From an uncultured virus (IMG/VR IMGVR_UViG_3300013728_000001) (Duplodnaviria; Heunggongvirae; Uroviricota; Caudoviricetes), in the IMG/VR virus record IMGVR_UViG_3300013728_000001: a stretch of DNA of 64,000 nucleotides. One strand, written 5' to 3'. The notes beneath the pieces were generated by a model. It saw only the letters and a program-made list of their open reading frames with translations. It did not search any database and was not told the DNA's origin. Each line of letters begins with the position of its first letter. Position 1 is the first letter of the stretch. Shown here one piece after another: positions 1,973 to 54,024 of the stretch. A program made the position numbers and the translations under genes.

Positions 1973-2422
1973 ATGTTTGTTTACCCGGTACGGCTCGTTC
2001 AGAACACGTCAGCGAGCGTATACGCTATTGCCTGCCGCGATCTGCCTTTCGTGCATGCCACAGGCGATTCGGCAGACAAAACGCTGCAGAACGCTTCTGA
2101 GGCGGTAATTCTGGCGATCAGCGCAATGATGGGAGAGCGGCGCATGGTGCCAACGGGCAGTAAGGCGCAGAGAGGGGAGCATCTGGTCAGCATCCCGGTG
2201 CTGGTGGCCATGAAAGTAGTTTTGCACAACACGATGATTGAGAAAGGCATGCGCAAAGCAGACCTGGGGCGCAGCCTAAACCTGAAGAACCCGCAGATAG
2301 AGCGGCTGCTGGATTTGCACCATTCCTCAAAGGTGGAGTTAGTTGAAAAAGCTATCCACCAGCTCGGGCGTGCAGTAAGACTCACTGCCGTTGAGGTTTA
2401 CGCTCCGAACCGGTCAGTATAG
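1973..2422 (+). CDS. HicB-like antitoxin with C-terminal HTH (no adjacent hicA)
   Basis: YPV..., RDLP...T.GD...NA.EA HicB core; RKADLGRSL...QIERLLDL.H.SK HTH tail. Confidence 0.75.
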   Translation: MFVYPVRLVQNTSASVYAIACRDLPFVHATGDSADKTLQNASEAVILAISAMMGERRMVPTGSKAQRGEHLVSIPVLVAMKVVLHNTMIEKGMRKADLGRSLNLKNPQIERLLDLHHSSKVELVEKAIHQLGRAVRLTAVEVYAPNRSV

Positions 2423-28976: not shown

Positions 28977-29384
28977 TCACATGAGCGGGGTGTTTTCTAT
29001 CCTTCCCCGCATACACCTGTCCATCAGTTCCCTTGCCATCACGCATACAGAACGTAGCTCCATTTCTTTTGACTGGAGGCGGCGCTTCGTGGCGCTGGTA
29101 ACAATCAGCGAATCGTAGTCAATGTCCGGGCGTCCGCGCGCTTTGAAGGTGTAGCCTTTTAACGCATCCAGGCGGTACTGACGTGGATAAGCGTCAGGGT
29201 GTACGCAGCATTGCGCAAAAGGAGAGCGGACAAAAGAGCGCAGAATATTAGTGATGATACCGGGATTGACTAATAAGTGCGGGTACTTTGCTTCCACCAG
29301 CCGGGTAACCTCTGCTACCGTCATATAATCACGATTGCGAACCAGCAGATCCGCCACCTCTATACTGCTCACCTTTTTGACCAT
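28977..29384 (-). CDS. lpa: Lpa-like late promoter activator
   Basis: DYMTV.E.T.LV..KYPHL.V...R.FV.S resembles recalled P1 Lpa; position upstream of pacAB. Confidence 0.7.
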   Translation of the reverse strand: MVKKVSSIEVADLLVRNRDYMTVAEVTRLVEAKYPHLLVNPGIITNILRSFVRSPFAQCCVHPDAYPRQYRLDALKGYTFKARGRPDIDYDSLIVTSATKRRLQSKEMELRSVCVMARELMDRCMRGRIENTPLM

Positions 29385-30169: not shown

Positions 30170-32857
30170 ATGGCTATCACCCAAGCTCGCATTATCGAAT
30201 CTATGGAACAAGCTTGTTCCAACGTTGCACCATCGGAATTTATCTTCGCTTTCCTGGATGCTTACGGCTTTTCAAAAAACACGATTTCACGCCTTCGCAA
30301 GGGTGATGACACACGTAACGTTGCAACCGGCAATGACATTGCTGTTAAGAAAAAAATCTACTTTTCTCCGGTTTCTGTTGGCTCAGATATCTATGCTGTT
30401 GCCGACCAACTGAAAGTTTCTAATATTGTTTTCAGGAACGATATTCGTTTTGTGATCGTTACCGACTTCACTCGCGTTGTTGCGTTCGATCTGGCTGCTG
30501 AAGAGCGTCTGGATGTTTCGATGTCCGAGCTGCATAAAAACTATGCTTTCTTCCTGCCGCTTGCGGGGTACGAAAAAGCGGTCATGTATACCGAGCATCC
30601 AGCCGACGTTAAAGCGTCTGAAAAAATGGGTGACCTGTTCGATCTTATCCGCGAACGTAATGACCTCTCAAAACTAGAAGACATTCACGCACTCAACGTG
30701 TTTTTAACTCGCCTGCTCTTCTGCTTCTACGCTGATGACACGGGCATTTTTGAGCGCGACCAGCTGACTATCGCCATTCAGGCTTACACGAAAGAAGACG
30801 GCTCAGACGTAGACCAGTTCTTTACTGACCTCTTTGCCGTGCTGAACCTGAAAACCACTGCGCCTGAACGTCAAAGCCTGCCTGTTCACCTTCAGGCTTT
30901 CCCATACGTTAACGGTGGCTTATTCAAAGCGGATGAACCTATTCCAGAGTTTGGCCGCAAATCTCGCCGCATCCTGATTGACTGCGGCTCAATGAACTGG
31001 TCTGAAATCAACCCAGACATTTTTGGTTCAATGTTCCAGGCGGTGATCGACGAAAACCAGCGCGGAAACCTCGGCCAGCACTACACCTCAGTTTCAAACA
31101 TCATGAAGGTGATCCAGCCGCTGTTTCTAGACAAGCTCTATGCTGAGCTGGAAAAAGCGCGTAAGAGTGAGCGTAAGCTCACCGAGCTGCATGTGCGTAT
31201 TCAGCAGATAAAAATCTTCGACCCTGCGTGTGGTTCAGGTAACTTCCTGATCATCGCTTACAAAGAGCTGCGTAAGCTGGAGATGGAAATTGTTCGCGCG
31301 ATGCGTGAATTAGATCCGCAGTCGATTCACCTGCCAAACCTGTCACTGTCAAACCTCTATGGCATTGAGATTGACGACTTTGCATGTGAGATCGCTCGCC
31401 TTTCTCTCTGGCTGGCTGAGCACCAGCTGAATAGCCAATGGGAAAAAGAGTTCGGCTATGCTCCACCAGCATTGCCACTGCGTGACAGCGGCAAGATCCA
31501 TCATGAAAACAGCCTTCGCGTTGACTGGCAGACGGTTTGTGCCAAAAAACCTGATGATGAGGTGTATCTGATTGGTAATCCGCCATTTTTAGGAACCGCT
31601 GGGCGTACTGAAAAACAAAGAGAAGATATGCAGGAAATTTTCAAGGGTTTCAAATCACTCGGTTATCTTGATTACGTGGCCTGTTGGTTCTGGAAAGGCG
31701 CGCAATACATTAAAGACTCTTCTTCGGAAATGGCTTTAGTATCAACAAATTCTATTTGCCAAGGCGAACAAGTTTCTACACTCTGGACTCCGATGTTTGC
31801 TTTAGGGTTGAATATTTCTTTTGCTTTCCCAACATTTTCCTGGGTTAACAATGCCCGTGATGCAGCAGCAGTTCATGTGATTATCATAGGTCTTTCAGCT
31901 AAGAAACTTCAGGCAAGGCTTTTCAATAACCTCGGTGGAAATTGGCATAGCAAAGTTGTTTCCAATATCAGCCCATATCTTATCGAAGGAAGTAATACTA
32001 TCGTTACTCCTGAAAAAAAGCCTTTAAATAAAAAAATATCACCACTTCTTTTTGGGAATAAACCTACTGATGGCGGGAATCTTTTTTTAGATAGAGCTGA
32101 AATGGAGCATCTTATCGCTGTAGAGCCGCAAGCTAAAAAATGGATTAAAAAAATCCTTGGCGCAGCTGAATTGCTTAATGGTAAAGAACGTTGGTGTCTC
32201 TGGCTTGTTGACGCAACCAAAGAGGATTTAGATGCGATGCCTATCGTGTCTCACCGCATCGCTCGTGTTAAAGAACTTAGAATTAAAGCTGGACACCCTG
32301 CCGCTCTGAAAATGTCAGAAAAACCTCATATGTTTATCCAGGTAAGTCAACCTAAAACTGGAAGCTATATTATGGTCCCTCGCGTTTCTTCTGAACGCAG
32401 AGATTATATTCCAATGGGTTTCTTTAACAGTGACACTATTTGCTCTGATGCAAACATGTTCATCCCTAATGGAACTCTTTATGAGTTTGGTATTTTGGCG
32501 TCAATGATGCACAATGACTGGATGCGTCTTGTGGCTGGTCGCTTAAAAAGCGATTACCGCTATTCTTCATCTGTTGTTTACAACACATTCCCTTGGCCAG
32601 AAGTCACAGATACTCAAATCTTAAAAATTGAAAGTTTAGCTGAGGATATTTTGATGATTCGTGAAGATTTTCCAGAGAAAACTCTTGCTGAGCTTTATGA
32701 CCCAAGAAAAATGCCTGAATCTTTGCGTAACGCACATCAGGATCTGGATCGCTCAGTCGAGAAACTGTATCGCGATAAACCATTTAAAGACGCTGCAGAG
32801 CGCCAGTCACACCTGATCGCTTGCTATGAAAGCTCTGTTAACAAAGGAGCAAAATAA
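30170..32857 (+). CDS. MmeI/YeeA-like N6-adenine DNA methyltransferase with target-recognition domain
   Basis: FPYVNGGLF, IFGSMFQ, G.HYTS, FDPACGSGNF (motif I), GNPPF (motif IV), GRLKSDYRYS and YNTFPWP. Confidence 0.93.
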   Translation: MAITQARIIESMEQACSNVAPSEFIFAFLDAYGFSKNTISRLRKGDDTRNVATGNDIAVKKKIYFSPVSVGSDIYAVADQLKVSNIVFRNDIRFVIVTDFTRVVAFDLAAEERLDVSMSELHKNYAFFLPLAGYEKAVMYTEHPADVKASEKMGDLFDLIRERNDLSKLEDIHALNVFLTRLLFCFYADDTGIFERDQLTIAIQAYTKEDGSDVDQFFTDLFAVLNLKTTAPERQSLPVHLQAFPYVNGGLFKADEPIPEFGRKSRRILIDCGSMNWSEINPDIFGSMFQAVIDENQRGNLGQHYTSVSNIMKVIQPLFLDKLYAELEKARKSERKLTELHVRIQQIKIFDPACGSGNFLIIAYKELRKLEMEIVRAMRELDPQSIHLPNLSLSNLYGIEIDDFACEIARLSLWLAEHQLNSQWEKEFGYAPPALPLRDSGKIHHENSLRVDWQTVCAKKPDDEVYLIGNPPFLGTAGRTEKQREDMQEIFKGFKSLGYLDYVACWFWKGAQYIKDSSSEMALVSTNSICQGEQVSTLWTPMFALGLNISFAFPTFSWVNNARDAAAVHVIIIGLSAKKLQARLFNNLGGNWHSKVVSNISPYLIEGSNTIVTPEKKPLNKKISPLLFGNKPTDGGNLFLDRAEMEHLIAVEPQAKKWIKKILGAAELLNGKERWCLWLVDATKEDLDAMPIVSHRIARVKELRIKAGHPAALKMSEKPHMFIQVSQPKTGSYIMVPRVSSERRDYIPMGFFNSDTICSDANMFIPNGTLYEFGILASMMHNDWMRLVAGRLKSDYRYSSSVVYNTFPWPEVTDTQILKIESLAEDILMIREDFPEKTLAELYDPRKMPESLRNAHQDLDRSVEKLYRDKPFKDAAERQSHLIACYESSVNKGAK

Positions 32858-34908
32858 TGACGGACTTACTGACAGTAAACTATAAGCAGACTGGTAAAAG
32901 CGCAAACCTGAACAGCATGGGCATGCGTGAGATGCAGGCTCGCGCTTTTGATTCTCGCAATGCTCAATACCTTCTGTTGAAAGCACCACCAGCATCAGGT
33001 AAATCCCGCGCGCTGATGTTCTTGGGGCTGGACAAGCTCCATAACCAAGGCGTGAAAAAGGTCATCGTGGCCGTGCCTGAGATGAGTATCGGCGGATCGT
33101 TCAGAGACACCGACCTGAAAAGCGGCGGTTTCTTTGCTAACTGGACCGTGTTGCCGAGCAATAACCTGTGTATTCCTGGCGGCGAAAACCAGAAGGTTTC
33201 AGCGTTCGTCAACTTCATGCATGACCCATCAGCTCAAACGCTGGTTTGTACCCATGCCACATTGCGCTTTGCCTTCCAGCAGCTCTCGCCATCTGATTTC
33301 GACGGCATGCTGCTGGCCATTGACGAATTCCACCATGCATCAGCCGGTGAAGAAAACCGCTTAGGCGCTATGATTGACAGCTTGATGGCCGAATCAACCG
33401 CTCACATCGTGGCAATGACCGGATCGTACTTCCGTGGTGATGCTATCCCTATCCTGCTGCCCGAGGATGAAGAGAAGTTCACTCAGGTGACGTATTCGTA
33501 CTATGAGCAGCTGAATGGCTATCGATACCTGAAATCCCTTGGCATTGGATATCACTTCTACACTGGCCGCTACTTTGACGCGATCCATGAAGTGCTCGAT
33601 ACCTCAAAGAAAACGATCATCCACATCCCTAATGTGAATTCGATTGAGTCCACAAAGGACAAGTATTCAGAGGTCGATTACATCCTAGACGCTATCGGTA
33701 AGGTCGTTTCTAAGGATATGCAGACCGGCATCATCACCGTCCAGGATAAGACTGGCCGACTGCTTAAGGTTGCTGACCTGGTTGATGATAATCCGTTGCG
33801 TATTGAGGTTCAGAACTACCTTCGCAATGTGAAGCATCGCGATGATATGGACATCATCATTGCCCTGGGCATGGCGAAAGAAGGTTTTGACTGGCCTTGG
33901 TGTGAGCACGTTTTGACTATCGGCTATCGCTCTTCGCTGACGGAAATCATTCAGATCATTGGCCGCGCCACTCGCGACTCTGAAGGTAAATCGCATGCGC
34001 AGTTCACCAACCTGATTGCCCAGCCAGACGCTGAAGACGATGACGTTAAGGTATCCGTTAACAACATGCTTAAAGCGATCACCGTTTCACTGTTGATGGA
34101 GCAAGTGCTGGCACCTTCCATCACCTTTAAACCTCGCTCACGCATGATGCCAGGTGAGCAGGCCGCACCGGGTACAGTTGTAATCGATGACATAAGCTCG
34201 CCGGTATCAGACAAAGTGATCAAGGCGCTGGAGAACATGGACAACATCAAAGCGGCGATTCTTCAAAAGCCGGAAGTGATTGCACCTACTGTGACCGGCG
34301 ATCCTAGCCAGGAAGTGCTGGAGCTGGTAGAGATCCCGAAAGTGATCGAGACAATGTATCCAGAAATGGACGCAGACGAAGTGCAGACTGTTGCGGAGGC
34401 TGTTCACACGTCAATGGTCGTTCAGTCTACCGGTGGCGTGATTAACGAGGCTGATTTACTTGCTGGAGCCATTATCGTTGACGGGAAAGGCCAGATCGAG
34501 ACGTTCAAGCCTAAAGCACTGCCAGCCAATAACGGTGAGGTAAAAGGGAATCGCGAGTTCGTTAACATTGGCGGCAAGTTTATCAACATCGAAAATCTCA
34601 ATGTTGACCTGATCCGGCAGGTGAACCCTTTCCAAGGTGCTTACGAAATTCTGTCTAAAGCGGTGACGACAGATGTGTTGAAAACCATCCAGGACACCGT
34701 CACCGGCATGCGCTCAACCATGACTGAGGAAGAGGCTATTGTGCTCTGGAAGCATGTACTGGATTTTCGCCGCGACAAAGGTCGTGAGCCTTCTGTAAGA
34801 GCCGCTGATGCCTTTGAGCGTCGTCTTGGTGATGCGCTGGCATTCGTTAAGCGTAAGAAGGCTGAGCAGCTTCTGGCTCAGGCTAAAGAGGCTAACGGTG
34901 CAGAATAA
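32857..34908 (+). CDS. YeeB-like superfamily-2 (DEAD/DEAH) helicase/ATPase
   Basis: APPASGKS, IDEFHH, MTGS, KEGFD and QIIGRATR. Confidence 0.92.
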   Translation: MTDLLTVNYKQTGKSANLNSMGMREMQARAFDSRNAQYLLLKAPPASGKSRALMFLGLDKLHNQGVKKVIVAVPEMSIGGSFRDTDLKSGGFFANWTVLPSNNLCIPGGENQKVSAFVNFMHDPSAQTLVCTHATLRFAFQQLSPSDFDGMLLAIDEFHHASAGEENRLGAMIDSLMAESTAHIVAMTGSYFRGDAIPILLPEDEEKFTQVTYSYYEQLNGYRYLKSLGIGYHFYTGRYFDAIHEVLDTSKKTIIHIPNVNSIESTKDKYSEVDYILDAIGKVVSKDMQTGIITVQDKTGRLLKVADLVDDNPLRIEVQNYLRNVKHRDDMDIIIALGMAKEGFDWPWCEHVLTIGYRSSLTEIIQIIGRATRDSEGKSHAQFTNLIAQPDAEDDDVKVSVNNMLKAITVSLLMEQVLAPSITFKPRSRMMPGEQAAPGTVVIDDISSPVSDKVIKALENMDNIKAAILQKPEVIAPTVTGDPSQEVLELVEIPKVIETMYPEMDADEVQTVAEAVHTSMVVQSTGGVINEADLLAGAIIVDGKGQIETFKPKALPANNGEVKGNREFVNIGGKFINIENLNVDLIRQVNPFQGAYEILSKAVTTDVLKTIQDTVTGMRSTMTEEEAIVLWKHVLDFRRDKGREPSVRAADAFERRLGDALAFVKRKKAEQLLAQAKEANGAE

Positions 34909-36170
34909 TGGCTTTCACACATCATAAAAACAAGGGCGCTTTGCGCCCTACCCTGGCAGACATTTTCAGCAGCGATGATGAGTTTGGCTTACTGAATGTT
35001 GAGGCAAAAAAGGGCAACTATTCATCTTCACCAGAAGTGGCGAAATTTGAAGAAATCAGCGCGTTTGTGGATCAGCATGGCCGCCAACCATCTGCCGACG
35101 GTGATCTGAGTGAGAAGTTGCTTGCGCGCCGCTTGATGGGTTATCAGCAGAATGATGGCATGCAACCGCTGTTGCTTCCTTTTGACCGTCATGGACTGTT
35201 GCCTGACTTGGGTGAATTAGAGGGCGACTTAGGTGAAACCCATGACGCAGTTACGGCGGCGGCTTCCGCTTTGTCAGAGGAATTTACCTCGCTGGATGAC
35301 ATTTTTGCGAGTACATCATTTGATGAGTTTGACCTGGGCGACACCAGCATTCTGAGTTCGGTGAATGTTGAGTTCAACAAGTCAGCCGATCCTGATGAAG
35401 TGGCGCACCGCCGGGTATGCAAAGATTTTTACCAGTTTGAATCGACATTCAAACAACTGCATGACTATCTCAAGTCTGGAAAGGCCAGCGCTATTCGATT
35501 TATCAAAGGCTCCCAAGTTCAGACCGGTGATGCATTTATCATGGATGGCGTAATTTGCATCGTTGATGAAGTTGGCGAGTATCGCGAAGAAAAAGATGGC
35601 CGCTATAACCCTCGTTTACGTCTAATTTTTGAAAATGGCACTGAGTCGAATCACTTGCTCCGCTCTTTGTCAAAGCGACTTTACAAAGAAGAAACGGGCC
35701 GTCGCATAATACAGGATGGCGATTCTGTTGCTGAGATATTCAACAACATTACTCATAAAGACAAACGCTCTGGCCAGATCTACTTTGTGACAACGAAAAG
35801 TGACAATCCGGTGCTGTCTTCAATACCGAACCTCATCAAGATTGGCTATACGGAGTATACCGTAGAGGAACGGACTAAGAACGCGATTAACGACCCGGCG
35901 TTTCTGGAGTCGCCGGTAAAAATCTTAGCTTCTATGGAGTGTTATAACCTAAACCCCAATAAGTTTGAGACGCTGATCCACGGTTTTTTACACTCACAGC
36001 GCCTGAAGGTGACGCTCACCGGTAAGAACGGTAAAGCTTATCACCCTAGCGAATGGTTTTCGGTGCCGCTGGATACCGCCCGCGAGGTGGTTAAGCGCAT
36101 CATCGATGGCTCTATCGTGCATTACCGGATGGATAATACCACCGGAAAGATAGTGATGAAAAAGGGCTGA
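34908..36170 (+). CDS. YeeC-like GIY-YIG (T5orf172/MUG113-type) nuclease
   Basis: GQIYFV...IKIGYT...VEER...E..IH...EWF. Confidence 0.88.
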   Translation: MAFTHHKNKGALRPTLADIFSSDDEFGLLNVEAKKGNYSSSPEVAKFEEISAFVDQHGRQPSADGDLSEKLLARRLMGYQQNDGMQPLLLPFDRHGLLPDLGELEGDLGETHDAVTAAASALSEEFTSLDDIFASTSFDEFDLGDTSILSSVNVEFNKSADPDEVAHRRVCKDFYQFESTFKQLHDYLKSGKASAIRFIKGSQVQTGDAFIMDGVICIVDEVGEYREEKDGRYNPRLRLIFENGTESNHLLRSLSKRLYKEETGRRIIQDGDSVAEIFNNITHKDKRSGQIYFVTTKSDNPVLSSIPNLIKIGYTEYTVEERTKNAINDPAFLESPVKILASMECYNLNPNKFETLIHGFLHSQRLKVTLTGKNGKAYHPSEWFSVPLDTAREVVKRIIDGSIVHYRMDNTTGKIVMKKG

Positions 36171-36172
36171 TA

Positions 36173-36445
36173 ATGCCCAAGGCAGAAGTGGTCATCGACG
36201 ATTTACAGGGTGAAGTCATCGATCTAGGTAATTGTTACGTGGTAGAAGTCGCAGGAGACGAGGCGCAAGGATGCTGCCCGTACTGTGAATCCGATACGCC
36301 GTATAAACATGGCGTTAAGCAACATCATTTCGTTGATATACCCCATGACGGAAAGTCTACCCTTTTGCGTGTTGAGCGGGCGCGCTGGCGCTGTCGCTCT
36401 TGCCGGAAAAGCTTATTTTCGCCTGACCTGCGCCCCGTTGATTAA
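36173..36445 (+). CDS. Stand-alone zinc-finger resembling the ISL3 transposase N-terminus
   Basis: CPYC...YKHG....F.D.P..G....L...R.RWRC..C; no DDE domain follows. Confidence 0.6.
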   Translation: MPKAEVVIDDLQGEVIDLGNCYVVEVAGDEAQGCCPYCESDTPYKHGVKQHHFVDIPHDGKSTLLRVERARWRCRSCRKSLFSPDLRPVD

Positions 36446-36708: not shown

Positions 36709-37287
36709 TTAAATCAGTCTCCAGTCGCTTGCCAGCAGATCGGCGGTTACGGGCGTCCAGTCAGCCGTTGTCAGCTGCTCAGTATTGGTCAGAACGAACT
36801 GAGGCATACGCGTTACGGACGCCTGCGGATCGTGGTCAAAGAATCGCGCCGGCACGCCGTACATATCGGTGCCGTTTAGCGGGTGCCGTGTGGTGCCTCT
36901 GTTGAGGCGCAGATGTGTTCCCTCTCCCCACGCTTTACGTGCCACTTTTGCGCCGTCAGAGAGCCACACATGCGCGACGGCCATCGGCGCGCCCTCTTCC
37001 CTGAATTTCAGCATGCCCTCGTCTATCAGCTGCTCGTTGCGCAGGATCAGATCGTTCAGCTTCAGCATGGCCAGACAGGCAGCATGATTAAGCGATTCCC
37101 CGCGGGCGGTCATGGTCAGTGCGCCTTTGCTCACCGTGGCTGACCAGTCTGTTGCGGTCTGTGACTGGTGCGTTACCACAAAGCCCAGGTGCTCCAGAAC
37201 GTTCAGCAGCGCCATATAGTCACCGGTATAGTTGCCTGCAGCGCCGGCAATCATGCCAATCATTCCGTTTATTTGTTGATCGTTCAT
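36709..37287 (-). CDS. ABA-sandwich-like domain fused to a DUF2829/Tad2-like domain
   Basis: G.KVARKAW...W.P...DLLASDW C-terminal signature; N-terminal YT.D..A...V.E...A.C.A.LK. Confidence 0.7.
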   Translation of the reverse strand: MNDQQINGMIGMIAGAAGNYTGDYMALLNVLEHLGFVVTHQSQTATDWSATVSKGALTMTARGESLNHAACLAMLKLNDLILRNEQLIDEGMLKFREEGAPMAVAHVWLSDGAKVARKAWGEGTHLRLNRGTTRHPLNGTDMYGVPARFFDHDPQASVTRMPQFVLTNTEQLTTADWTPVTADLLASDWRLI

Positions 37288-37289
37288 CC

Positions 37290-37547
37290 TTAGTAAACCC
37301 GTTTGATTTTGCGCTTGTGGGCGCTCTGCCTGCGCTTCTGCGCGGTCTGCCGTTCACGTTCACGTTCGCGGTGCTGATGCGCTTCTTCCATGCTGGTGGC
37401 CAGACGCTGTATTCCGTCCTCGGCGGTCAGCTGTGGGCGGTCCGGCAGCTGCAGCGACCTGACCTGCAGCACGGGAACGGTTGGCGGCCGGCGCGCCAGC
37501 CAGGTGAGACTTCCCATTAATGCGCCCATCAGTGCGATCTTTTTCAT
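37290..37547 (-). CDS. Hypothetical basic protein
   Basis: GAGAG RBS; Arg/Lys-rich C-terminus. Confidence 0.55.
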   Translation of the reverse strand: MKKIALMGALMGSLTWLARRPPTVPVLQVRSLQLPDRPQLTAEDGIQRLATSMEEAHQHRERERERQTAQKRRQSAHKRKIKRVY

Positions 37548-37687
37548 GCTCTCTCTCTGTCGTGCAGGCGTGCAGAATCCCCGGCGATTGCCGGTGATCA
37601 AAATTCACCTAATTAATTCCGGCGCCGGGTGCGCACGGGGATGTTCTGAGGCCTGTCCCGGCGACTGGCCGGGTGGCTATGTAGGCA

Positions 37688-37789
37688 TTGTGCTGGCCGG
37701 ATTTGAACCGGCGACCTTTCGCTTGTCCCTTTCACCGCCCTGCAGGCCGAATAAAAGAGCGAACGCTGCTGCCGCTGAGCTACAACACA
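37688..37789 (-). ncRNA. tRNA-like RNA with about 36-nt insert in the anticodon loop
   Basis: Acceptor TGTGTTG/CAGCACA, TAGCTCAG D-arm start, TTCGC/GCGAA stem, AGGTC, GCCGG-TTCAAAT-CCGGC T-arm; no encoded CCA. Confidence 0.65.
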
Positions 37790-38423
37790 ACGATAAAAGC
37801 CCGTCTGCCGGTGCTCTTACCTGTTGGCCTGTATCAGCTGGCCACCAGCTGTGCGATTAGCCATTTATGACCGGCAAACAGTCCGGCATTCAGCAGCAGA
37901 TGAAACATGACAAACTGCATCGCTCTGACTGTTTTGGTGTACATGCTGGTGTCCATACTGCTTAAACCCTGATTAACTGACTGAATTGCTCTAATCATGC
38001 CTGAATTTTCATGTCAGCGCTTATGCGTGCGTATCTGTTATGCGTTAGTGGTGGCCGGTGCCATACCCGGCAAGTAACCTCTCAAGCGACTGGTCAACTC
38101 GGTTACTGGCGGCTTAAACCCCTATGCGGTGCGATTGATGAAGCGGGGGCCAGTCTTGCGATCGCAGCAGCAACTGCGAATGCACCACAACGGAGAGAGC
38201 ACTGAGCGGCTAATGCGCTTTCCTGTTGGGGTGTCGTGCTATTTGCGGCGCTTTTTCTTCGCGTCGCTGCGACAGGCTTTAATAACCGTTTCAAAGCCGT
38301 AAATGATCACCAGCGTGTAAATGATGGTGAGGGCTGGATGCTCTGCAGCAAACGCTAAAAACGGCATATCGTGTCCTGTCTGTTAGGGATGCTGGCTCCA
38401 ATGCAACTGGTCTGTACTGAAAC

Positions 38424-38507
38424 TGGCAGTGACGGCTGGATTTGAACCAGCGACCTTCCGTACTCCTGAGTTAAAGCCGGACGCTCATTCCCCTGAGCTA
38501 CATCACC
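38424..38507 (-). ncRNA. tRNA-like RNA with aberrant anticodon arm and 3' CCA
   Basis: GGTGATG/CGTCACT-G-CCA, GCTC/GAGC D-stem, GCTGG-TTCAAAT-CCAGC T-arm; TCCG..CGGA encloses 17 nt. Confidence 0.7.
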
Positions 38508-39227
38508 ATAAACGGGTTGCTGTGATCGGTTTCCGTTAGCGCGATTGTTCAATGAGGCGGGAGAGATACCCGCTTTGCCTTCGCAGCCCATCGCTGACCG
38601 CCGGCGTCGATTCGCCGGCAGGGCTTTCGCCCCGTGGATTGACTCCACAACTCCTACGGTGTGTTAAAGCAATCACCACAACGGCTGAGAGCACTGACTC
38701 CCTGCCCGGATAACGGAGCCTTTACCAGTCTCCGCCCAGTGCTCTCACCGTTGTGTGCCGGTCTTTCCCGGCTGTCACGAACTTTTTTGAGGTCTGCCGC
38801 TGACCTTGCCCTGCCAGCAGCCAAATTAGCCAGTAAGCAGCGCGTCGCCCGGTGTTGGCGTGTAATGCATGGGGGGCTGGTGCCTCCAGCTGTCCGATAC
38901 GGAACCTACGGACGGGGATATTGAACAGTTACCAAGAGTATATATCTGAGTTCCGCCCCGCGTGCGCATAGCCGCATTCCCCCATTTGTGAGCGTGCTGT
39001 CAAAGGTAGTTTTACCCGTCGCCAGGCAGCAAGAGGATGCCAGCACGCTCACAAATGGCGATCCCTTACGGGGATCAGGCGGGAACTTGTTTAAGCCTCA
39101 CGGGGCGTTCTATGCGCGGGATAGTCCAAAACCGCGTTCACTGCCGTGACAGGAGGGGCTACATGCCGTTCACCCTACTCATAACACGCCCGGAAAAGGT
39201 AATAACCGGGAGCGGCCCGTTACGAAC

Positions 39228-39300
39228 TGGTGCATGGGGCCGGATTTGAACCGGCGGCGGACTTAACAACTTCTGCGTTCGGCCTCTTCGCTACCCATGC
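39228..39300 (-). tRNA. Degenerate tRNA (Asn-like GTT loop, poorly paired anticodon stem), 3' CCA
   Basis: GCATGGG/CCCATGC-A-CCA, GCG/CGC D-stem, GCCGG-TTCAAAT-CCGGC T-arm. Confidence 0.6.
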
Positions 39301-39636
39301 TGAATTAGTGCCGGTGCATACCCGGCGCGGACACTTAGGCATCTGGTCAACCTGTCCGCTTGCGAAACAAAAGGGAAGAACCACCCCTGCCAGATTTGCA
39401 TTGCGTCTGCCTCGCTGCTGAATCCTCTCTCCGATTCAGCCGTGAGCACACATCATGCACTCACGGTTAAACCTGAAAAAAAGCCCGAAAACTATCGGGC
39501 ATTAAATGTTACCAACCAATATAAAGCGCACTCACAAAATGCGCTTTAGAGTGGGGAAAAAGACAGGCTAAACAAAATGTTACCGTCCAGCCTGATTGCA
39601 CTAAGTTTTTAAAGACACGATGTTACAGCGAGAAGA

Positions 39637-39665
39637 AATGTACACAAAAATACGGAAACAATCAA
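39637..39665 (-). promoter_or_regulatory. Sigma70-like promoter reading into the ncRNA array
   Basis: TTGATT-17 bp-TACATT on the minus strand. Confidence 0.6.
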
Positions 39666-39724
39666 TTAAAAATGGCTTTCTATTTTAGAAATGAATATGT
39701 TTATTTCAGGCTGCTTTTTGGCCC

Positions 39725-41014
39725 TTAACGACGTCTGGTATTTGGGTTTTTGAGGTTTTCAATATCGCCATTGGTTTTTGACCAGGCAATGCACCAGCTG
39801 TTAACAGCAGCGCGGATCTCGTCTACCGTGGCCTCGCTTAGCCCTTTGACCTTCACCAGTTCCGGCGGTAGCTCACCGCCCACAGCCGCCACCGTGTCAT
39901 AACCGGCTTTTACCAGCGCGTTAAGCGCACGCGCAGGGATAGCCAGCTCGGAGACCGGCGCGGCCTTACCGTCCATGATGCGCTTGTGGAGTCGCGGGAA
40001 GTCCAGCGCCAGGCGGGTCATGATGCGCTCGTGCAGTTCGTCGTTGATGGCCGTGTCCCACATAGGGAGTAAATCAGGCAGGATGCGGAACACCGGATTG
40101 CCCCATATACCCGGCACCACGTCCATTGCCAGCATCATCGCCGTGCGGATCTGGTAGTGGAAATTTGCCGTCTCAATGGACACGTCACGGATGCCGTGAA
40201 ATACGCTGAGCCCGAAGTGGAAGTTATAGATATAGCAGCCCACGTCACCGCTGCCATCCGGCAGCTGCAGCAGGAATTGCGCCACATCTTCCTGCCCGTC
40301 GTGAAACTCCACGCGCTCTTTCAAATGATTGTGCGAGGCAGTGAGTTTAATGAGATCGTTGGCCGTCTCACCGCGCAGGCGACGTTCTTTACCCACTTCT
40401 TTATCTGCAATATTCAGCTTCTGCTGCAGTTCCTGTATCAGTGCGCTTTGCTTTTTGCGGTCGGCGCGGTGCTGAGATATGGTTTTGTCGCGCTCCTGCA
40501 GATCTGCCGCCAGGCGTTCAGGATTCTTGCGGCGGTAGTGCGCAAATTCCTGATTCAGAGTGGTCAGCGCCAGCTGCGCGGTAACCAGCGCATCTGAGTT
40601 GCGATCACGGGCGTTTTCAGCATTGATAGCGCGATTTTCGGCCTCACCTTCACGAATACGGGCTTCCTGAATGGCTTCATCAGCGGCGTTCTTCGCCTCA
40701 AGGCGAATCTGAGCTATCTCTGCGGCCAGCACGGAATGGCCGTCCAGCTCCTGCTGTACGTGCTCCAGCGCATCTGCCAGCACGTTATAGGTATCAGCTT
40801 CGTGGTTAAGGCGCAGGTTGATATCAATCTGCACCTGCTCCAGCGCAGACAGGCAGTTGTCCAGCAGGCGCTTTTCTAGATCGTCGAGTTTCAGGCGCTT
40901 GCGCATAGAACTCAGCTGGCCATAGGCCGTTACAAACGTCTGGTGCAGTACTTCATCGTCAACGGGGCATTCAGGGAGTTGCTGCAGCTGCTTGAGCACA
41001 TTTTGAGAAGTCAT
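39725..41014 (-). CDS. Coiled-coil protein with C-terminal RNAP alpha-CTD-like (HhH) domain
   Basis: L.IPARALNALVKAGY.TV......EL.KVKGLS...VDEI. Confidence 0.7.
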   Translation of the reverse strand: MTSQNVLKQLQQLPECPVDDEVLHQTFVTAYGQLSSMRKRLKLDDLEKRLLDNCLSALEQVQIDINLRLNHEADTYNVLADALEHVQQELDGHSVLAAEIAQIRLEAKNAADEAIQEARIREGEAENRAINAENARDRNSDALVTAQLALTTLNQEFAHYRRKNPERLAADLQERDKTISQHRADRKKQSALIQELQQKLNIADKEVGKERRLRGETANDLIKLTASHNHLKERVEFHDGQEDVAQFLLQLPDGSGDVGCYIYNFHFGLSVFHGIRDVSIETANFHYQIRTAMMLAMDVVPGIWGNPVFRILPDLLPMWDTAINDELHERIMTRLALDFPRLHKRIMDGKAAPVSELAIPARALNALVKAGYDTVAAVGGELPPELVKVKGLSEATVDEIRAAVNSWCIAWSKTNGDIENLKNPNTRRR

Positions 41015-53688: not shown

Positions 53689-53742
53689 GGTGTGCTCCCT
53701 GTGCTTTGAGAAGCGTCACGACAGGAGGTTCCAATCTCCGGG

Positions 53743-53819
53743 TGGTGACGTTGACAGGGTTGGAACTACCGGTGCACAAGAAAACCGGCCTACCCGAAGG
53801 TAGCCCCGCCAACGCCACC
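53743..53819 (-). ncRNA. c4: C4 antisense RNA (immI-type)
   Basis: GGTGGCGTTGGCGGGG-CTACCTTCGGGTAG-GCCGG..CCGGT-AGTTCCAA-CCCTGTCAACGTCACCA fold; complementary TTGGAAC targets at about 53728 and 53893. Confidence 0.85.
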
Positions 53820-54024
53820 ATAGATACGCCCGGAATTTTCCGGACGTGGTAGCGCCGAAGGCACTGTGTGCCAGCTCTCATGCTTTTTCAGGGTTCCAAT
53901 CCCGGCCACTGTTTTGCAGCGGCGCGCACACTATATCCGCCGCGCTGATAAATTTAATATGTCTAATGTGAAATTATCCACTGGTCATTAGATCCACGCA
54001 TGAATCAAGAAAAGTTACCTACGC

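What the first reader, a model, noticed from the sequence alone, without database searches (positions are those of the whole stretch)
37600..39670. About 2 kb non-coding array of tRNA-scaffold RNAs with replaced anticodon arms
Seen: no credible CDS lies between 37547 and 39725. A minus-strand sigma70-like promoter (39637-39665) points into a chain of hairpins. Three units (39228-39300, 38424-38507, 37688-37789) keep well-paired acceptor stems, recognisable D-arms and T-arms (GG-TTCAAAT-CC; two end in CCA). In all three only the anticodon arm is abnormal: shortened, 17-nt loop, or about 36-nt loop. Other units repeat: GCCGGTGC(C)ATACCCGGC...CTGGTCAAC (about 38055, 39310) and CACCACAACGG..GAGAGCACT (about 38183, 38673). 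Known: P1 carries ordinary tRNAs, and C4 is an RNase P-processed tRNA-like antisense RNA. Inference: random decay would not spare three arms and hit only the fourth each time. This may be a polycistronic, host-processed set of small RNAs using tRNA scaffolds as decoys (for anticodon nucleases, TA or Cas proteins) or as guides. The array leads into a Tad2-like anti-defence gene.
Basis: partly seen in the sequence, partly recalled or inferred. Interest (0 to 1): 0.82.

Follow-up and report, generated by a model that had tools for sequence, protein, structure and literature searches.

The report
Phage RNA island with tRNA-derived scaffolds
A P1-like phage-plasmid of Pantoea carries a roughly 2 kb island of conserved structured RNAs in which three tRNA-derived units keep the tRNA body but have non-decoding anticodon arms, probably serving as processing and stabilising modules, not as working tRNAs.

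Summary
Three minus-strand units (39300-39228, 38507-38424, 37789-37688) score 40.9-50.2 bits on Rfam tRNA (threshold 29). All three keep acceptor, D and T arms but have abnormal anticodon regions. Relatives show this is not random decay. Unit 3's enlarged arm is a conserved extended helix with compensatory changes. Unit 2's covariation supports an enlarged arm and argues against ARAGORN's ochre-suppressor fold. Unit 1 exists as two swapped alleles in identical flanks, and two relatives have a canonical tRNA(CAU) in that slot.

Corrections:
- The region is not CDS-free. Two small ORFs (42 and 40 aa) are conserved as proteins.
- The promoter runs into a strong terminator about 150 nt later, defining a separate sRNA.
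- The stretch between units 1 and 2 is about 0.8 kb of conserved, covarying structured RNA. It includes a roughly 105-nt pseudoknot-like element found in all 58 related loci and matching no Rfam family.

Best reading (0.45): tRNA-derived punctuation or scaffold modules, cut and stabilised by host tRNA enzymes, inside a mosaic phage RNA island. Decoy, relic and "large ornate RNA" readings remain open. No expression data exist. I rate it a new variant of a known kind.

The parts
39637..39665 (-). Putative sigma70-type promoter (TTGATT, 17-nt spacer, TACATT) of sRNA-1
   Evidence: Read from the sequence. It falls below the scan's threshold and was not listed. The block TTTGTGTACATTTCT is invariant in 6 of 6 aligned relatives although the flanks diverge. 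It is unique in the window.
39476..39630 (-). sRNA-1: two hairpins, a single-stranded stretch and a strong intrinsic terminator (39500-39476)
   Evidence: Terminator found. Folding of 39476-39620 gives z = -4.37, with 0 of 200 shuffles folding as well. In L002-L005 the stretch before the terminator reads TTGCTGTGTGTAGT, which matches the RprA consensus printed. The window has a different sequence at that position.
39365..39466 (-). Leader or second sRNA-like unit: hairpins 39466-39440 and 39439-39418, a near-invariant single-stranded stretch (39417-39389), and a terminator-like hairpin (39388-39372) with a U tract
   Evidence: z = -3.36. The terminator-like hairpin covaries in 5 pairs (cols 100-119; GGGG/CCCU, GGUG/CACC and AGGU/ACCU types read from the rows).
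39310..39359 (-). Two-hairpin module X (large loop containing GUUGACCAG, then GCCGG-GUAUGCA-CCGGC), copy 1, directly upstream of unit 1
   Evidence: (D10, I4). It is nearly invariant in relatives.
39228..39300 (-). tRNA-like unit 1, allele A: 7-bp acceptor stem, D arm, T arm, discriminator A plus CCA; no anticodon stem (linker of about 18 nt)
   Evidence: Rfam tRNA 40.9 bits. Fold. Alleles A and B compared.
39056..39161 (-). Conserved structured RNA element of about 105 nt with a probable pseudoknot (the 'PK element'), starting 67 nt after the CCA of unit 1 (a conserved stretch lies between)
   Evidence: Model R1 scores 117 bits here, as a single copy in the window. It hits 58 of 58 related loci at 99-121 bits. 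Rfam gives no match at E up to 10.
38522..39054 (-). About 530 nt of conserved multi-helix RNA: hairpin 39054-38986; domain 38985-38869; domain 38867-38776; GAAAGA-loop hairpin 38772-38757; long hairpin 38755-38677; multi-branch domain 38676-38522
   Evidence: RNAalifold predicts 139 pairs in 22 helices. 19 pairs changed on both sides, against 7.0 +/- 1.4 in shuffles (0 of 500) and 4-9 in slid controls. Coordinates. No conserved ORF is annotated here in relatives.
38424..38507 (-). tRNA-like unit 2: acceptor, D and T arms intact, GCCA end, anticodon arm enlarged (4-bp stem enclosing 17 nt)
   Evidence: Rfam 50.2 bits. ARAGORN calls it tRNA-Stop(tta). Homologue comparison. MFE fold. Absent from L002-L005.
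38239..38367 (-). Small ORF-A, 42 aa, hydrophobic core and KKKRRK tail
   Evidence: Annotated as a hypothetical protein in 4 relatives. No Pfam or PHROG match.
38054..38106 (-). Module X, copy 2, upstream of ORF-B
   Evidence: (D10) and the sequence.
37834..37956 (-). Small ORF-B, 40 aa (an upstream ATG at 37998 would give 54 aa), hydrophobic
   Evidence: 80-85% amino-acid identity where the DNA is about 75-78% identical.
37688..37789 (-). tRNA-like unit 3: acceptor, D and T arms, with the anticodon arm replaced by an extended arm (5-bp stem, internal loop with invariant GGGACA, 4-bp helix, apical 3-4-bp hairpin); no encoded CCA
   Evidence: Rfam 45.9 bits. Covariation.
36709..37547 (-). Downstream co-oriented genes: an 85-aa ORF (37290-37547) and the Tad2-like gene (36709-37287)
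   Evidence: PF11195, 43.2 bits. Relatives annotate the latter as MW1434/DUF2829.
39725..41014 (-). Upstream co-oriented gene, PmgS-like, with an RNA polymerase alpha C-terminal-like domain
   Evidence: PHROG 1660, E 1e-93. PF03118, 29.2 bits.

Best explanation
The region is a mosaic RNA island in the accessory region of a Pantoea P1-like phage-plasmid, lying between a pmgS-like gene and a Tad2-like gene and lpa. It holds at least one terminator-bounded sRNA, about 0.8 kb of conserved structured RNA, two small-peptide ORFs, and three tRNA-derived units at the junctions between these modules.

The units descend from phage tRNA genes. They have lost the decoding anticodon stem-loop. They keep what host tRNA enzymes recognise: the acceptor/T minihelix, the D/T elbow nucleotides, and in two cases an encoded CCA.

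Proposed mechanism (inferred, not shown). Host RNase P cuts at the 5' end of each unit. The host 3'-end tRNA maturation enzymes cut at the 3' end. This releases the flanking RNAs with defined ends and yields stable tRNA-shaped RNAs. In units 2 and 3 the anticodon arm is replaced by a conserved extended helix. The unit would then act like a natural version of the engineered 'tRNA scaffold', carrying a payload arm whose partner is unknown.
For: (1) Scaffold kept, decoder lost. All three units pass Rfam tRNA at 40.9-50.2 bits. U8, A14, the GG of the D loop and the UUCAAAU T loop are present. None has a 7-nt loop on a 5-bp anticodon stem.

(2) The replaced arms are themselves under constraint. In unit 3 (17 distinct sequences), the anticodon stem has 3 pairs changed on both sides, and a further 4-bp helix has 2 such pairs (CUUU/AAAG, CCAU/AUGG, CUAU/AUAG). 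GGGACA is invariant. In unit 2, UCCG/CGGA becomes CCCG/CGGG in L054.

(3) The same slot holds a real tRNA in relatives. In L038 and L058 a canonical tRNA(CAT) of 71.8 bits ends in CCA directly before the same downstream sequence AGTTCG..AACGGG that follows unit 1 here. So whatever the slot does needs no anticodon.

(4) Junction positions. The conserved RNA that contains the PK element starts right after the CCA of unit 1. Unit 2 ends 56 nt before ORF-A. Unit 3 starts 44 nt after ORF-B and lies upstream of the next ORF. All are on one strand together with the flanking genes.

(5) Related islands mix canonical tRNAs, tRNA-likes with 126-132-nt bodies, and host-like sRNAs. These include RprA-like at 63.4 bits, STnc100 at 48.1 bits (threshold 47), and DicF-like at about 29 bits.

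[quoted passage not shown] The stable natural RNAs they imitate are processed precisely and escape 3' polyadenylation and degradation (PMC3753655, passages read).
Against: No transcript, processing or stability data exist for any of these RNAs. No promoter was found for the stretch after the terminator at 39476.

A pure processing role does not explain two observations. Unit 1 exists as two sharply different alleles swapped between otherwise close backbones. Unit 3's payload is conserved in detail.

Some copies are decaying. The unit 1 copy in L054 has mismatches in the acceptor and T stems and a UAC T loop. In unit 3 the first T-stem pair is unpaired in 9 of 17 variants and the fourth D-stem pair in 5 of 17.

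Unit 2 is absent from L002-L005. The PK element occurs without any upstream tRNA in 27 of 59 sequences. The tRNA module is therefore dispensable for the neighbouring RNAs.

Single-sequence folding z-scores of the three units are unremarkable: -2.69, -1.64 and -0.90.
Confidence: 0.45

Rival explanations
1. Decoys or sponges. The tRNA-shaped RNAs titrate a host or rival-element factor that recognises the tRNA body or its 3' end, not the anticodon. Candidates (named from recall, not tested) are toxins that modify the acceptor end, or tRNA-binding defence effectors. On this view the island is an anti-defence locus.
For: The island lies in a variable accessory hot spot next to a Tad2-like gene. Relatives insert TerB, DUF3927 or a serine protease/SPFH gene at the same place. 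Unit 1 alleles A and B are exchanged in conserved flanks: 16 A and 14 B among 59 sequences. Unit 2 varies in presence. Such turnover is typical of arms-race loci. The body and CCA are kept while the anticodon is discarded.
Against: No tRNA-targeting enzyme or partner gene was seen among 58 window proteins scanned against Pfam. Anticodon nucleases cannot be the target, because no anticodon loop remains. Allele exchange could be neutral recombination. There is no experimental evidence.
Confidence: 0.2
2. The units are integral parts of one large 'ornate' phage RNA. The stretch from about 39470 to 38420 (about 1.05 kb) would be a single structured ncRNA with covalently linked tRNA-like modules at or near its ends. 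This would be analogous to GOLLD and ROOL RNAs, which lie near or contain phage tRNAs.
For: The 550 nt between the PK element and unit 2 fold into 22 helices, with 19 pairs changed on both sides against 7.0 +/- 1.4 in shuffles. The leader and the PK element are also structured and conserved. The 1-kb block is about 84% identical to L002-L005, against 74-78% for the part that holds the ORFs. No ORF is annotated there in relatives. [quoted passage not shown]
Against: Rfam GOLLD and ROOL do not match at E up to 10. The modules recur separately in other phages. The PK element stands alone in lambdoid prophages, which favours a mosaic of independent modules. A terminator-like hairpin at 39388-39372 lies inside the stretch. 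The structure was derived from the same alignment on which it was counted. Diversity is limited to 22 distinct rows from one clade.
Confidence: 0.2
3. Relics. The units are decaying phage tRNA pseudogenes with no function of their own, carried along in a conserved region.
For: The unit 1 copy in L054 carries several stem mismatches. Allele A looks like a deletion derivative of an 82-nt form seen in L006 and L051. Unit 2 is dispensable in L002-L005. The first T-stem pair is broken in 9 of 17 unit 3 variants.
Against: Acceptor stems are 100% paired across the 17 unit 3 variants, and 93.6% of all cells pair. There are compensatory changes in the very arm that is 'abnormal'. Two independent non-decoding alleles are maintained at the unit 1 slot in 30 of 59 sequences.
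Confidence: 0.1
4. Unit 2 is a working ochre-suppressor tRNA (anticodon UUA) with a long variable region, as ARAGORN calls it.
For: ARAGORN calls tRNA-Stop(tta) in the window and in 7 related loci. The homologue in L054 is called tRNA-Gln(ttg).
Against: ARAGORN's anticodon stem has one mismatch and two G-U pairs here. In L054 it has two mismatches. The alternative 4-bp stem is perfect in both and changes on both sides (U-A to C-G). The 13-nt 'variable arm' forms no stem. The MFE fold extends the arm to a 6-nt loop.
Confidence: 0.03

Closest known systems
Engineered 'tRNA scaffold' for recombinant RNA expression in E. coli (Ponchon and Dardel approach; PMC3753655, passages read)
   Same: Acceptor stem, T arm and D arm are kept, and the anticodon stem-loop is replaced by an inserted hairpin-shaped RNA. 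The host is an enterobacterium whose tRNA enzymes process and protect such chimeras.
   Different: That system is man-made. Here the inserts are natural, short (17-36 nt; 55-60 nt in the 126-132-nt relatives) and conserved, and their function is unknown. Processing has not been shown.
GOLLD and ROOL large ornate phage RNAs (Rfam families; bioRxiv 10.1101/2024.12.08.627333, passages read)
   Same: Long, highly structured non-coding RNA in phages and prophages, next to or containing tRNAs, with unknown function.
   Different: No match to either Rfam model at E up to 10. The host group differs (Enterobacterales P1-like plasmids). The tRNAs here are non-decoding derivatives. It is unknown whether the RNA is one molecule or whether it assembles.
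Phage T4 stable RNAs 'species 1 and 2' in the tRNA gene cluster, and the tRNA-linked small RNAs of murine gammaherpesvirus 68
   Same: Viral non-decoding RNAs are co-transcribed with or fused to tRNA-like units. Host tRNA enzymes mature them.
   Different: No sequence relation was tested. The herpesvirus case uses RNA polymerase III and RNase Z in eukaryotic cells.
C4 antisense RNA of P1/P7 (RF01695)
   Same: It belongs to the same kind of phage. Its maturation by RNase P is recalled from the literature. The window has its own C4 at 53738-53825 (85.4 bits).
   Different: The three units do not match RF01695. They are full cloverleaf-derived bodies, not an acceptor-stem mimic.
Prophage sRNA islands (STnc100, PasD, DicF, RprA-like; bioRxiv 10.64898/2026.05.13.724894, abstract, section 17 and passages read)
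   Same: Related loci carry STnc100 (48.1 bits), RprA-like and DicF-like hits in the syntenic gap. Seeds are swapped on a conserved sRNA frame.
   Different: That paper treats nearby tRNA-like hits as remnants of integration sites. It does not describe tRNA-derived scaffolds or the PK element.
HK022 put antiterminator RNA (PMC9378689, passages read)
   Same: In an E. coli lambdoid prophage the PK element sits about 180 nt downstream of an early-type promoter, ahead of terminators. This is the kind of place where put or nut sites lie.
   Different: put is about 70 nt and forms two stem-loops with no pseudoknot. Model R1 finds nothing in the HK022 genome at E up to 10.

Membership tests
tRNA (Rfam RF00005) | Score at or above the curated gathering score (29 bits), with acceptor, D and T arms | tested here: met
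   50.2, 45.9 and 40.9 bits. Two of the three also pass in gathering mode on the whole window.
tRNA (decoding) | 5-bp anticodon stem closing a 7-nt loop with U33 and a usable anticodon | tested here: not met
   Unit 1 has no stem. In unit 2, covariation favours a 4-bp stem enclosing 17 nt. Unit 3 has a 5-bp stem enclosing about 36 structured nt. ARAGORN finds only 1 of the 3.
tRNA (decoding) | Aminoacylation and use on the ribosome | not testable with these tools
   Needs acid-gel or periodate assays.
Suppressor tRNA (unit 2) | Canonical anticodon arm presenting UUA, conserved in homologues | tested here: not met
   ARAGORN's stem has a mismatch here and two in L054, and the loop sequence changes (CUUUAAC to CUUUGGC). 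The alternative stem covaries.
GOLLD / ROOL | Match to the family covariance model | tested here: not met
   No hit at E up to 10 in 37300-39800.
GOLLD / ROOL | Large multi-helix conserved RNA in phages, beside tRNAs | tested here: inconclusive
   About 0.8-1 kb with 22 + 4 + several helices and covariation, flanked by tRNA-like units. Whether it is a single transcript is not shown.
GOLLD / ROOL | Self-assembly into multimeric cages | not testable with these tools
   Needs native gels or cryo-EM.
C4 / CI antisense RNA (RF01695) | Match to the family model | tested here: not met
   The only hit is at 53738-53825.
RprA (RF00034), for sRNA-1 | Match to the model, and the conserved 3' seed | tested here: not met
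   No RprA hit in the window at E up to 10. The seed-like TTGCTGTGTGTAGT is in L002-L005, not in the window. L007 scores 63.4 bits, below the threshold of 70.
HK022 put RNA, for the PK element | Homology to putL/putR; two-stem-loop V shape | tested here: not met
   R1 has no hit in HK022. The architecture differs.
Natural tRNA punctuation or scaffold (functional class, not a sequence family) | Cleavage by RNase P and 3' tRNA-processing enzymes at unit boundaries; stable product | not testable with these tools
   Only the recognition features are present.

The most novel reading that the evidence does not exclude
The segment from about 39470 to 38420 is one large (about 1 kb) ornate structured RNA of a new class in phages of Enterobacterales. 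It would carry covalently attached, non-decoding tRNA-shaped modules at its ends and a widely shared pseudoknotted core element. Functionally it would be comparable to GOLLD and ROOL, and it occurs in genetically tractable hosts. Units 2 and 3 would display conserved 'payload' arms for an unknown partner.
Probability: 0.22. Interest if true: 0.85.

Novelty: new variant of a known kind. Interest (0 to 1): 0.62.

Why it matters
Phage tRNA genes are usually discussed as codon supplements or as replacements for tRNAs cut by host defences. Here tRNA genes have been converted into non-decoding, tRNA-shaped RNAs. Their altered arms are themselves conserved, and they sit among sRNAs and a long structured RNA.

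If the units are processed as proposed, this is a natural counterpart of the laboratory 'tRNA scaffold'. It would also be a bacterial-phage example of tRNA punctuation.

The accompanying element of about 105 nt is present in all 58 related loci found, including prophages of Citrobacter, Pectobacterium and a few E. coli, and it matches no Rfam family. The structured RNA of about 0.8 kb is also unmatched. Both are candidates for new RNA families, and they occur in hosts where genetics and RNA biochemistry are routine. That would make the open question of what large phage RNAs next to tRNAs do more testable.

Tried and rejected
(1) Phage collection. No match, near or distant, to 37500-39760.

I used pattern scans of contig collections instead.

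(3) put-RNA idea for the PK element. Model R1 found nothing in HK022 at E up to 10, and the put architecture differs.

(4) Pseudoknot test by per-sequence complementarity. 4-bp pairings between the P2 loop and the 3' linker arise in 15-100% of loop shuffles, so a single sequence proves nothing. Support rests only on matched changes between clades: GCUC/GAGC, GCCC/GGGC, GCAC/GUGC, and GCC/GGC against GUC/GAC. The Pantoea-type sequence, including the window, is ambiguous.

(5) Promoter search inside the array. Nothing passes the scan after 39476. The repeated GTTGACCAG module has no -10 hexamer at a workable spacing.

(6) The conserved promoter block and the GGAAAGACC motif are not repeated in the window.

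(7) First count of E. coli prophages. The 450 of 5426 genomes hit matched mostly the part upstream of the PK element. The element itself is in 6 of 5426 genomes.

(8) My own tRNA-like scanner listed 46 distinct sequences. Several are false positives inside coding or hairpin regions: the GTCT...AGACAGCA group and the long 111-200-nt group. I did not count them.

(9) Pfam scan of 58 window proteins found no tRNA-processing, repair or tRNA-targeting enzyme.

(10) Earlier findings of this scan: nothing near, and nothing by sequence. One hit by words was unrelated.

(11) Literature searches found no description of these units, of the PK element, or of an RNA island in P1-like phage-plasmids. The library lacks most subscription papers, and bioRxiv supplements could not be read.
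Full report
**What the window is.** The window comes from a P1-like phage-plasmid.
- It carries C4 antisense RNA (53738-53825, 85.4 bits).
- It encodes DarA, a DarB-like 2290-aa protein, ddrB, Lpa, Ref-like nuclease, UmuD/UmuC-like proteins, a Cre-like integrase and ParM.
- The closest annotated records are Pantoea plasmids of 87-95 kb. One record is labelled Acinetobacter venetianus. There are 6 records in near mode and 10 in distant mode, including Leclercia and Enterobacter plasmids. The phage collection has none.
- The region of the finding lies on the minus strand between a PmgS-like gene (39725-41014; PHROG 1660, E 1e-93; RNA_pol_A_CTD 29.2 bits) and a Tad2-like gene (36709-37287; PF11195).
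- From my recollection of the P1 map, pmgS to lpa is the stretch where P1 itself carries accessory genes, including phd-doc. This was not tested here.

**The observation.** Infernal against Rfam finds three tRNA matches on the minus strand:
- 38427-38507 at 50.2 bits
- 37688-37789 at 45.9 bits
- 39231-39300 at 40.9 bits

The threshold is 29 bits and the E-values are 3.4e-9 to 1.2e-6. Two of the three also pass in the whole-window gathering scan. ARAGORN finds only the middle one and calls it tRNA-Stop(tta). In all three, the acceptor stem (7 bp), D arm and T arm (GGTTCAAATCC) align to the model, and the anticodon region is an insertion or deletion. Units 1 and 2 are followed by CCA; unit 3 is not.

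**Corrections to the observation.**
- First, the lower half is not free of genes. ORFs of 42 aa (38239-38367) and 40 aa (37834-37956) are annotated in four relatives. They are conserved as proteins at 62-64% and 80-85% identity.
- Second, the proposed promoter has a -10 block that is invariant in relatives. About 150 nt later it meets a strong intrinsic terminator at 39500-39476. This defines a separate sRNA with z = -4.37. In L002-L005 the stretch before that terminator reads like the RprA seed. The window has a different sequence there, so this is a conserved sRNA frame with a swapped seed.

**Relatives gathered.** A 24-base pattern from the conserved element after unit 1 found 44 viral contigs and 6 species genomes. 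A unit 3 pattern found 15 and 4. Several loci are the same plasmid seen in two collections, so counts are of loci, not of independent genomes.

**Unit 1 (39300-39228).** The slot upstream of the conserved element holds one of two unrelated-looking alleles, set in near-identical flanks.
- Allele A is 69 nt plus CCA and is the one in the window.
- Allele B is 60 nt plus CCA. Only 11 nt, containing CAU, lie between the D and T arms.
- Among 59 sequences (58 loci plus the window) I count 16 A, 14 B, 2 canonical tRNA(CAT) and 27 with no tRNA there. This comes, corrected by eye for L037, L041 and L054.
- In L038 and L058 the canonical tRNA (71.8 bits) ends in CCA directly before the same downstream sequence.
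- An 82-nt longer form of allele A occurs elsewhere in L006 and L051.
- Against constraint: the allele A copy in L054 has mismatches in the acceptor and T stems and an altered T loop.

**Unit 2 (38507-38424).** It is present in the window and in 9 loci (6 with allele B, 2 with allele A including the window, plus L054). It is absent from L002-L005, where TerB and DUF3927 genes, or nothing, take its place. There are four distinct sequences. The divergent one (L054) changes U-A to C-G in the 4-bp stem that Infernal uses. It adds mismatches to the stem ARAGORN uses, and its acceptor stem changes A-U to G-C. The MFE fold extends the arm to nine pairs with a 6-nt loop. I therefore reject the suppressor reading. 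It rests on a single informative homologue.

**Unit 3 (37789-37688).** There are seventeen distinct sequences in three clades. On my structure (25 pairs), 93.6% of cells pair and 5 pairs change on both sides. These changes fall in 18 cells, against 6.0 +/- 1.9 in shuffles (0 of 500). Slid controls give 0-2 such pairs.
- The changes lie in the anticodon stem (UUCGC/GCGAA, CCCGC/GCGGG, CCGU/ACGG) and in a further helix (CUUU/AAAG, CCAU/AUGG, CUAU/AUAG).
- The apical hairpin also changes (GCC/GGC with a GUAA or GCAA loop, against CCCC/GGGG).
- GGGACA is invariant.
- So the '36-nt loop' is a conserved extended arm.
- Weak points: the first T-stem pair is unpaired in 9 of 17 variants, and the fourth D-stem pair in 5 of 17.
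- Related plasmids carry tRNA-likes of 126-132 nt with other inserts: L017/L023 at 39.3 bits and L007 at 27.4 bits.

**What lies between the units.**
- A conserved stretch begins directly after the CCA of unit 1. Inside it, at 39161-39056, lies a roughly 105-nt element with nested helices, a covarying hairpin and a probable pseudoknot.
- My model R1 finds the element once in the window (117 bits) and in 58 of 58 related loci (99-121 bits). These include about 42-48 kb phage contigs and chromosomes of Citrobacter and Pectobacterium.
- It is in 6 of 5426 complete E. coli genomes and is unannotated there.
- In one E. coli lambdoid prophage it lies about 180 nt downstream of a promoter that follows the repressor-like gene. 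After it come a long hairpin, an RprA-like seed and a terminator.
- Rfam has no match for it.
- The next 550 nt (39055-38508) fold, in 24 aligned sequences, into 139 pairs in 22 helices. 19 pairs change on both sides, against 7.0 +/- 1.4 in shuffles (0 of 500) and 4-9 in slid controls. The structure was predicted from the same alignment, which inflates the paired percentage. The tool's text says the pair-count measure is rarely exceeded by chance.
- The 175 nt before unit 1 contain three hairpins, a near-invariant single-stranded stretch and a covarying terminator-like hairpin.

**Interpretation.** The island is a mosaic of RNA modules that phages of Enterobacterales share and reshuffle.
- Relatives carry canonical tRNA(CAT), STnc100 (48.1 bits, threshold 47), RprA-like (63.4 bits, threshold 70) and DicF-like sequences in the same gap.
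- The three units are tRNA genes turned into non-decoding RNAs. They keep what RNase P, the 3' maturation enzymes and the CCA enzyme recognise.
- They sit at module boundaries, and a real tRNA can occupy the same slot.
- The most economical mechanism is punctuation and stabilisation by host tRNA enzymes, with units 2 and 3 also presenting a conserved arm.
- The laboratory tRNA scaffold has the same design. Such chimeras are recognised by E. coli cellular factors, like the stable RNAs that are processed and escape polyadenylation (PMC3753655).
- All of this is inference. No expression or cleavage data exist, and no promoter was found after 39476.

**Rival readings.** The allele swapping and the presence/absence pattern, together with the Tad2-like neighbour and inserted accessory genes, keep a decoy or anti-defence role open. 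That role could not be directed at anticodon nucleases. The extent of structure keeps open the reading of one large RNA with attached tRNA-like modules, comparable to GOLLD or ROOL. Local decay (L054) keeps a relic reading alive for unit 1.

**Novelty.** Seven literature searches found no description of these units, the PK element or an RNA island in P1-like phage-plasmids. The nearest paper treats tRNA-like hits beside prophage sRNAs as traces of integration sites. The principle of tRNA-like processing modules beside viral small RNAs is known, so I rate this a new variant of a known kind. The PK element and the long structured RNA are candidates for new families.

Noticed in passing
window 30170-36442 (+): A block of about 6-7 kb lies between the Tad2-like gene and lpa (28980-29384). 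It encodes an MmeI-family restriction-modification enzyme (895 aa, all five MmeI domains), a 683-aa helicase-like protein, a T5orf172/MUG113 protein and a small zinc-ribbon ORF. Relatives L002-L005 and L007 have lpa within about 400 nt of the Tad2-like gene. This looks like an inserted defence cassette.
   Followed up: partly
window 39056-39161 (-); L001-L058: A conserved structured RNA element of about 105 nt matches no Rfam family. It was found in 58 of 58 related loci, including Citrobacter and Pectobacterium chromosomes and 6 of 5426 E. coli genomes. In lambdoid prophages it lies in the early-leader position.
   Followed up: partly
L002-L005 about 1440-1500; L007 3394-3496; L059 4445-4495; L015-type loci: Phage and prophage sRNAs carry the RprA-like stretch TTGCTGTGTGTAGT(C) before a terminator. 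L007 scores 63.4 bits on RprA, just under the threshold of 70. These may be phage mimics of a host sRNA seed.
   Followed up: no
L059 4050-4680; window 38757-38772: A hairpin motif with the loop GAAAGA (GGAAAGACC) on variable stems. L059 has 4 exact copies and one with 1 mismatch in the prophage leader (by eye). The window has one copy. It resembles boxB-type hairpins (recalled), so it may be a protein-binding site.
   Followed up: no
L028 (cols 420-600 of alignment A11): One relative has a deletion that joins the long hairpin directly to unit 3 at the repeated CCGTTGTG. This suggests recombination between the three CCGTTGTG(G/T)TG repeats (window about 38690, 38195, 37795).
   Followed up: no
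window 38239-38367 and 37834-37956 (-): Two conserved small hydrophobic peptides (42 and 40 aa) with no family match. Their size and composition recall type I toxins or small membrane proteins. A weak PtaRNA1 hit (19.8 bits, E 0.87) overlaps the second and is not significant.
   Followed up: partly
L008 (CP060164.1): A plasmid 96% identical to the Pantoea one across this region is deposited under Acinetobacter venetianus, which belongs to a different order. This may be a host-label or contamination issue, or a wide host range.
   Followed up: no
L001 3081-4137; L008 3215-4054; L002/L005 2495-3128: Accessory genes are inserted into the RNA island in relatives: a serine protease / SPFH-band 7 gene after ORF-A, and TerB plus DUF3927 in place of unit 2. 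The island is therefore a hot spot for cargo.
   Followed up: partly
window 1973-2419 (+): A HicB-like antitoxin gene (PF15970, 33 bits). I did not look for a partner hicA.
   Followed up: no
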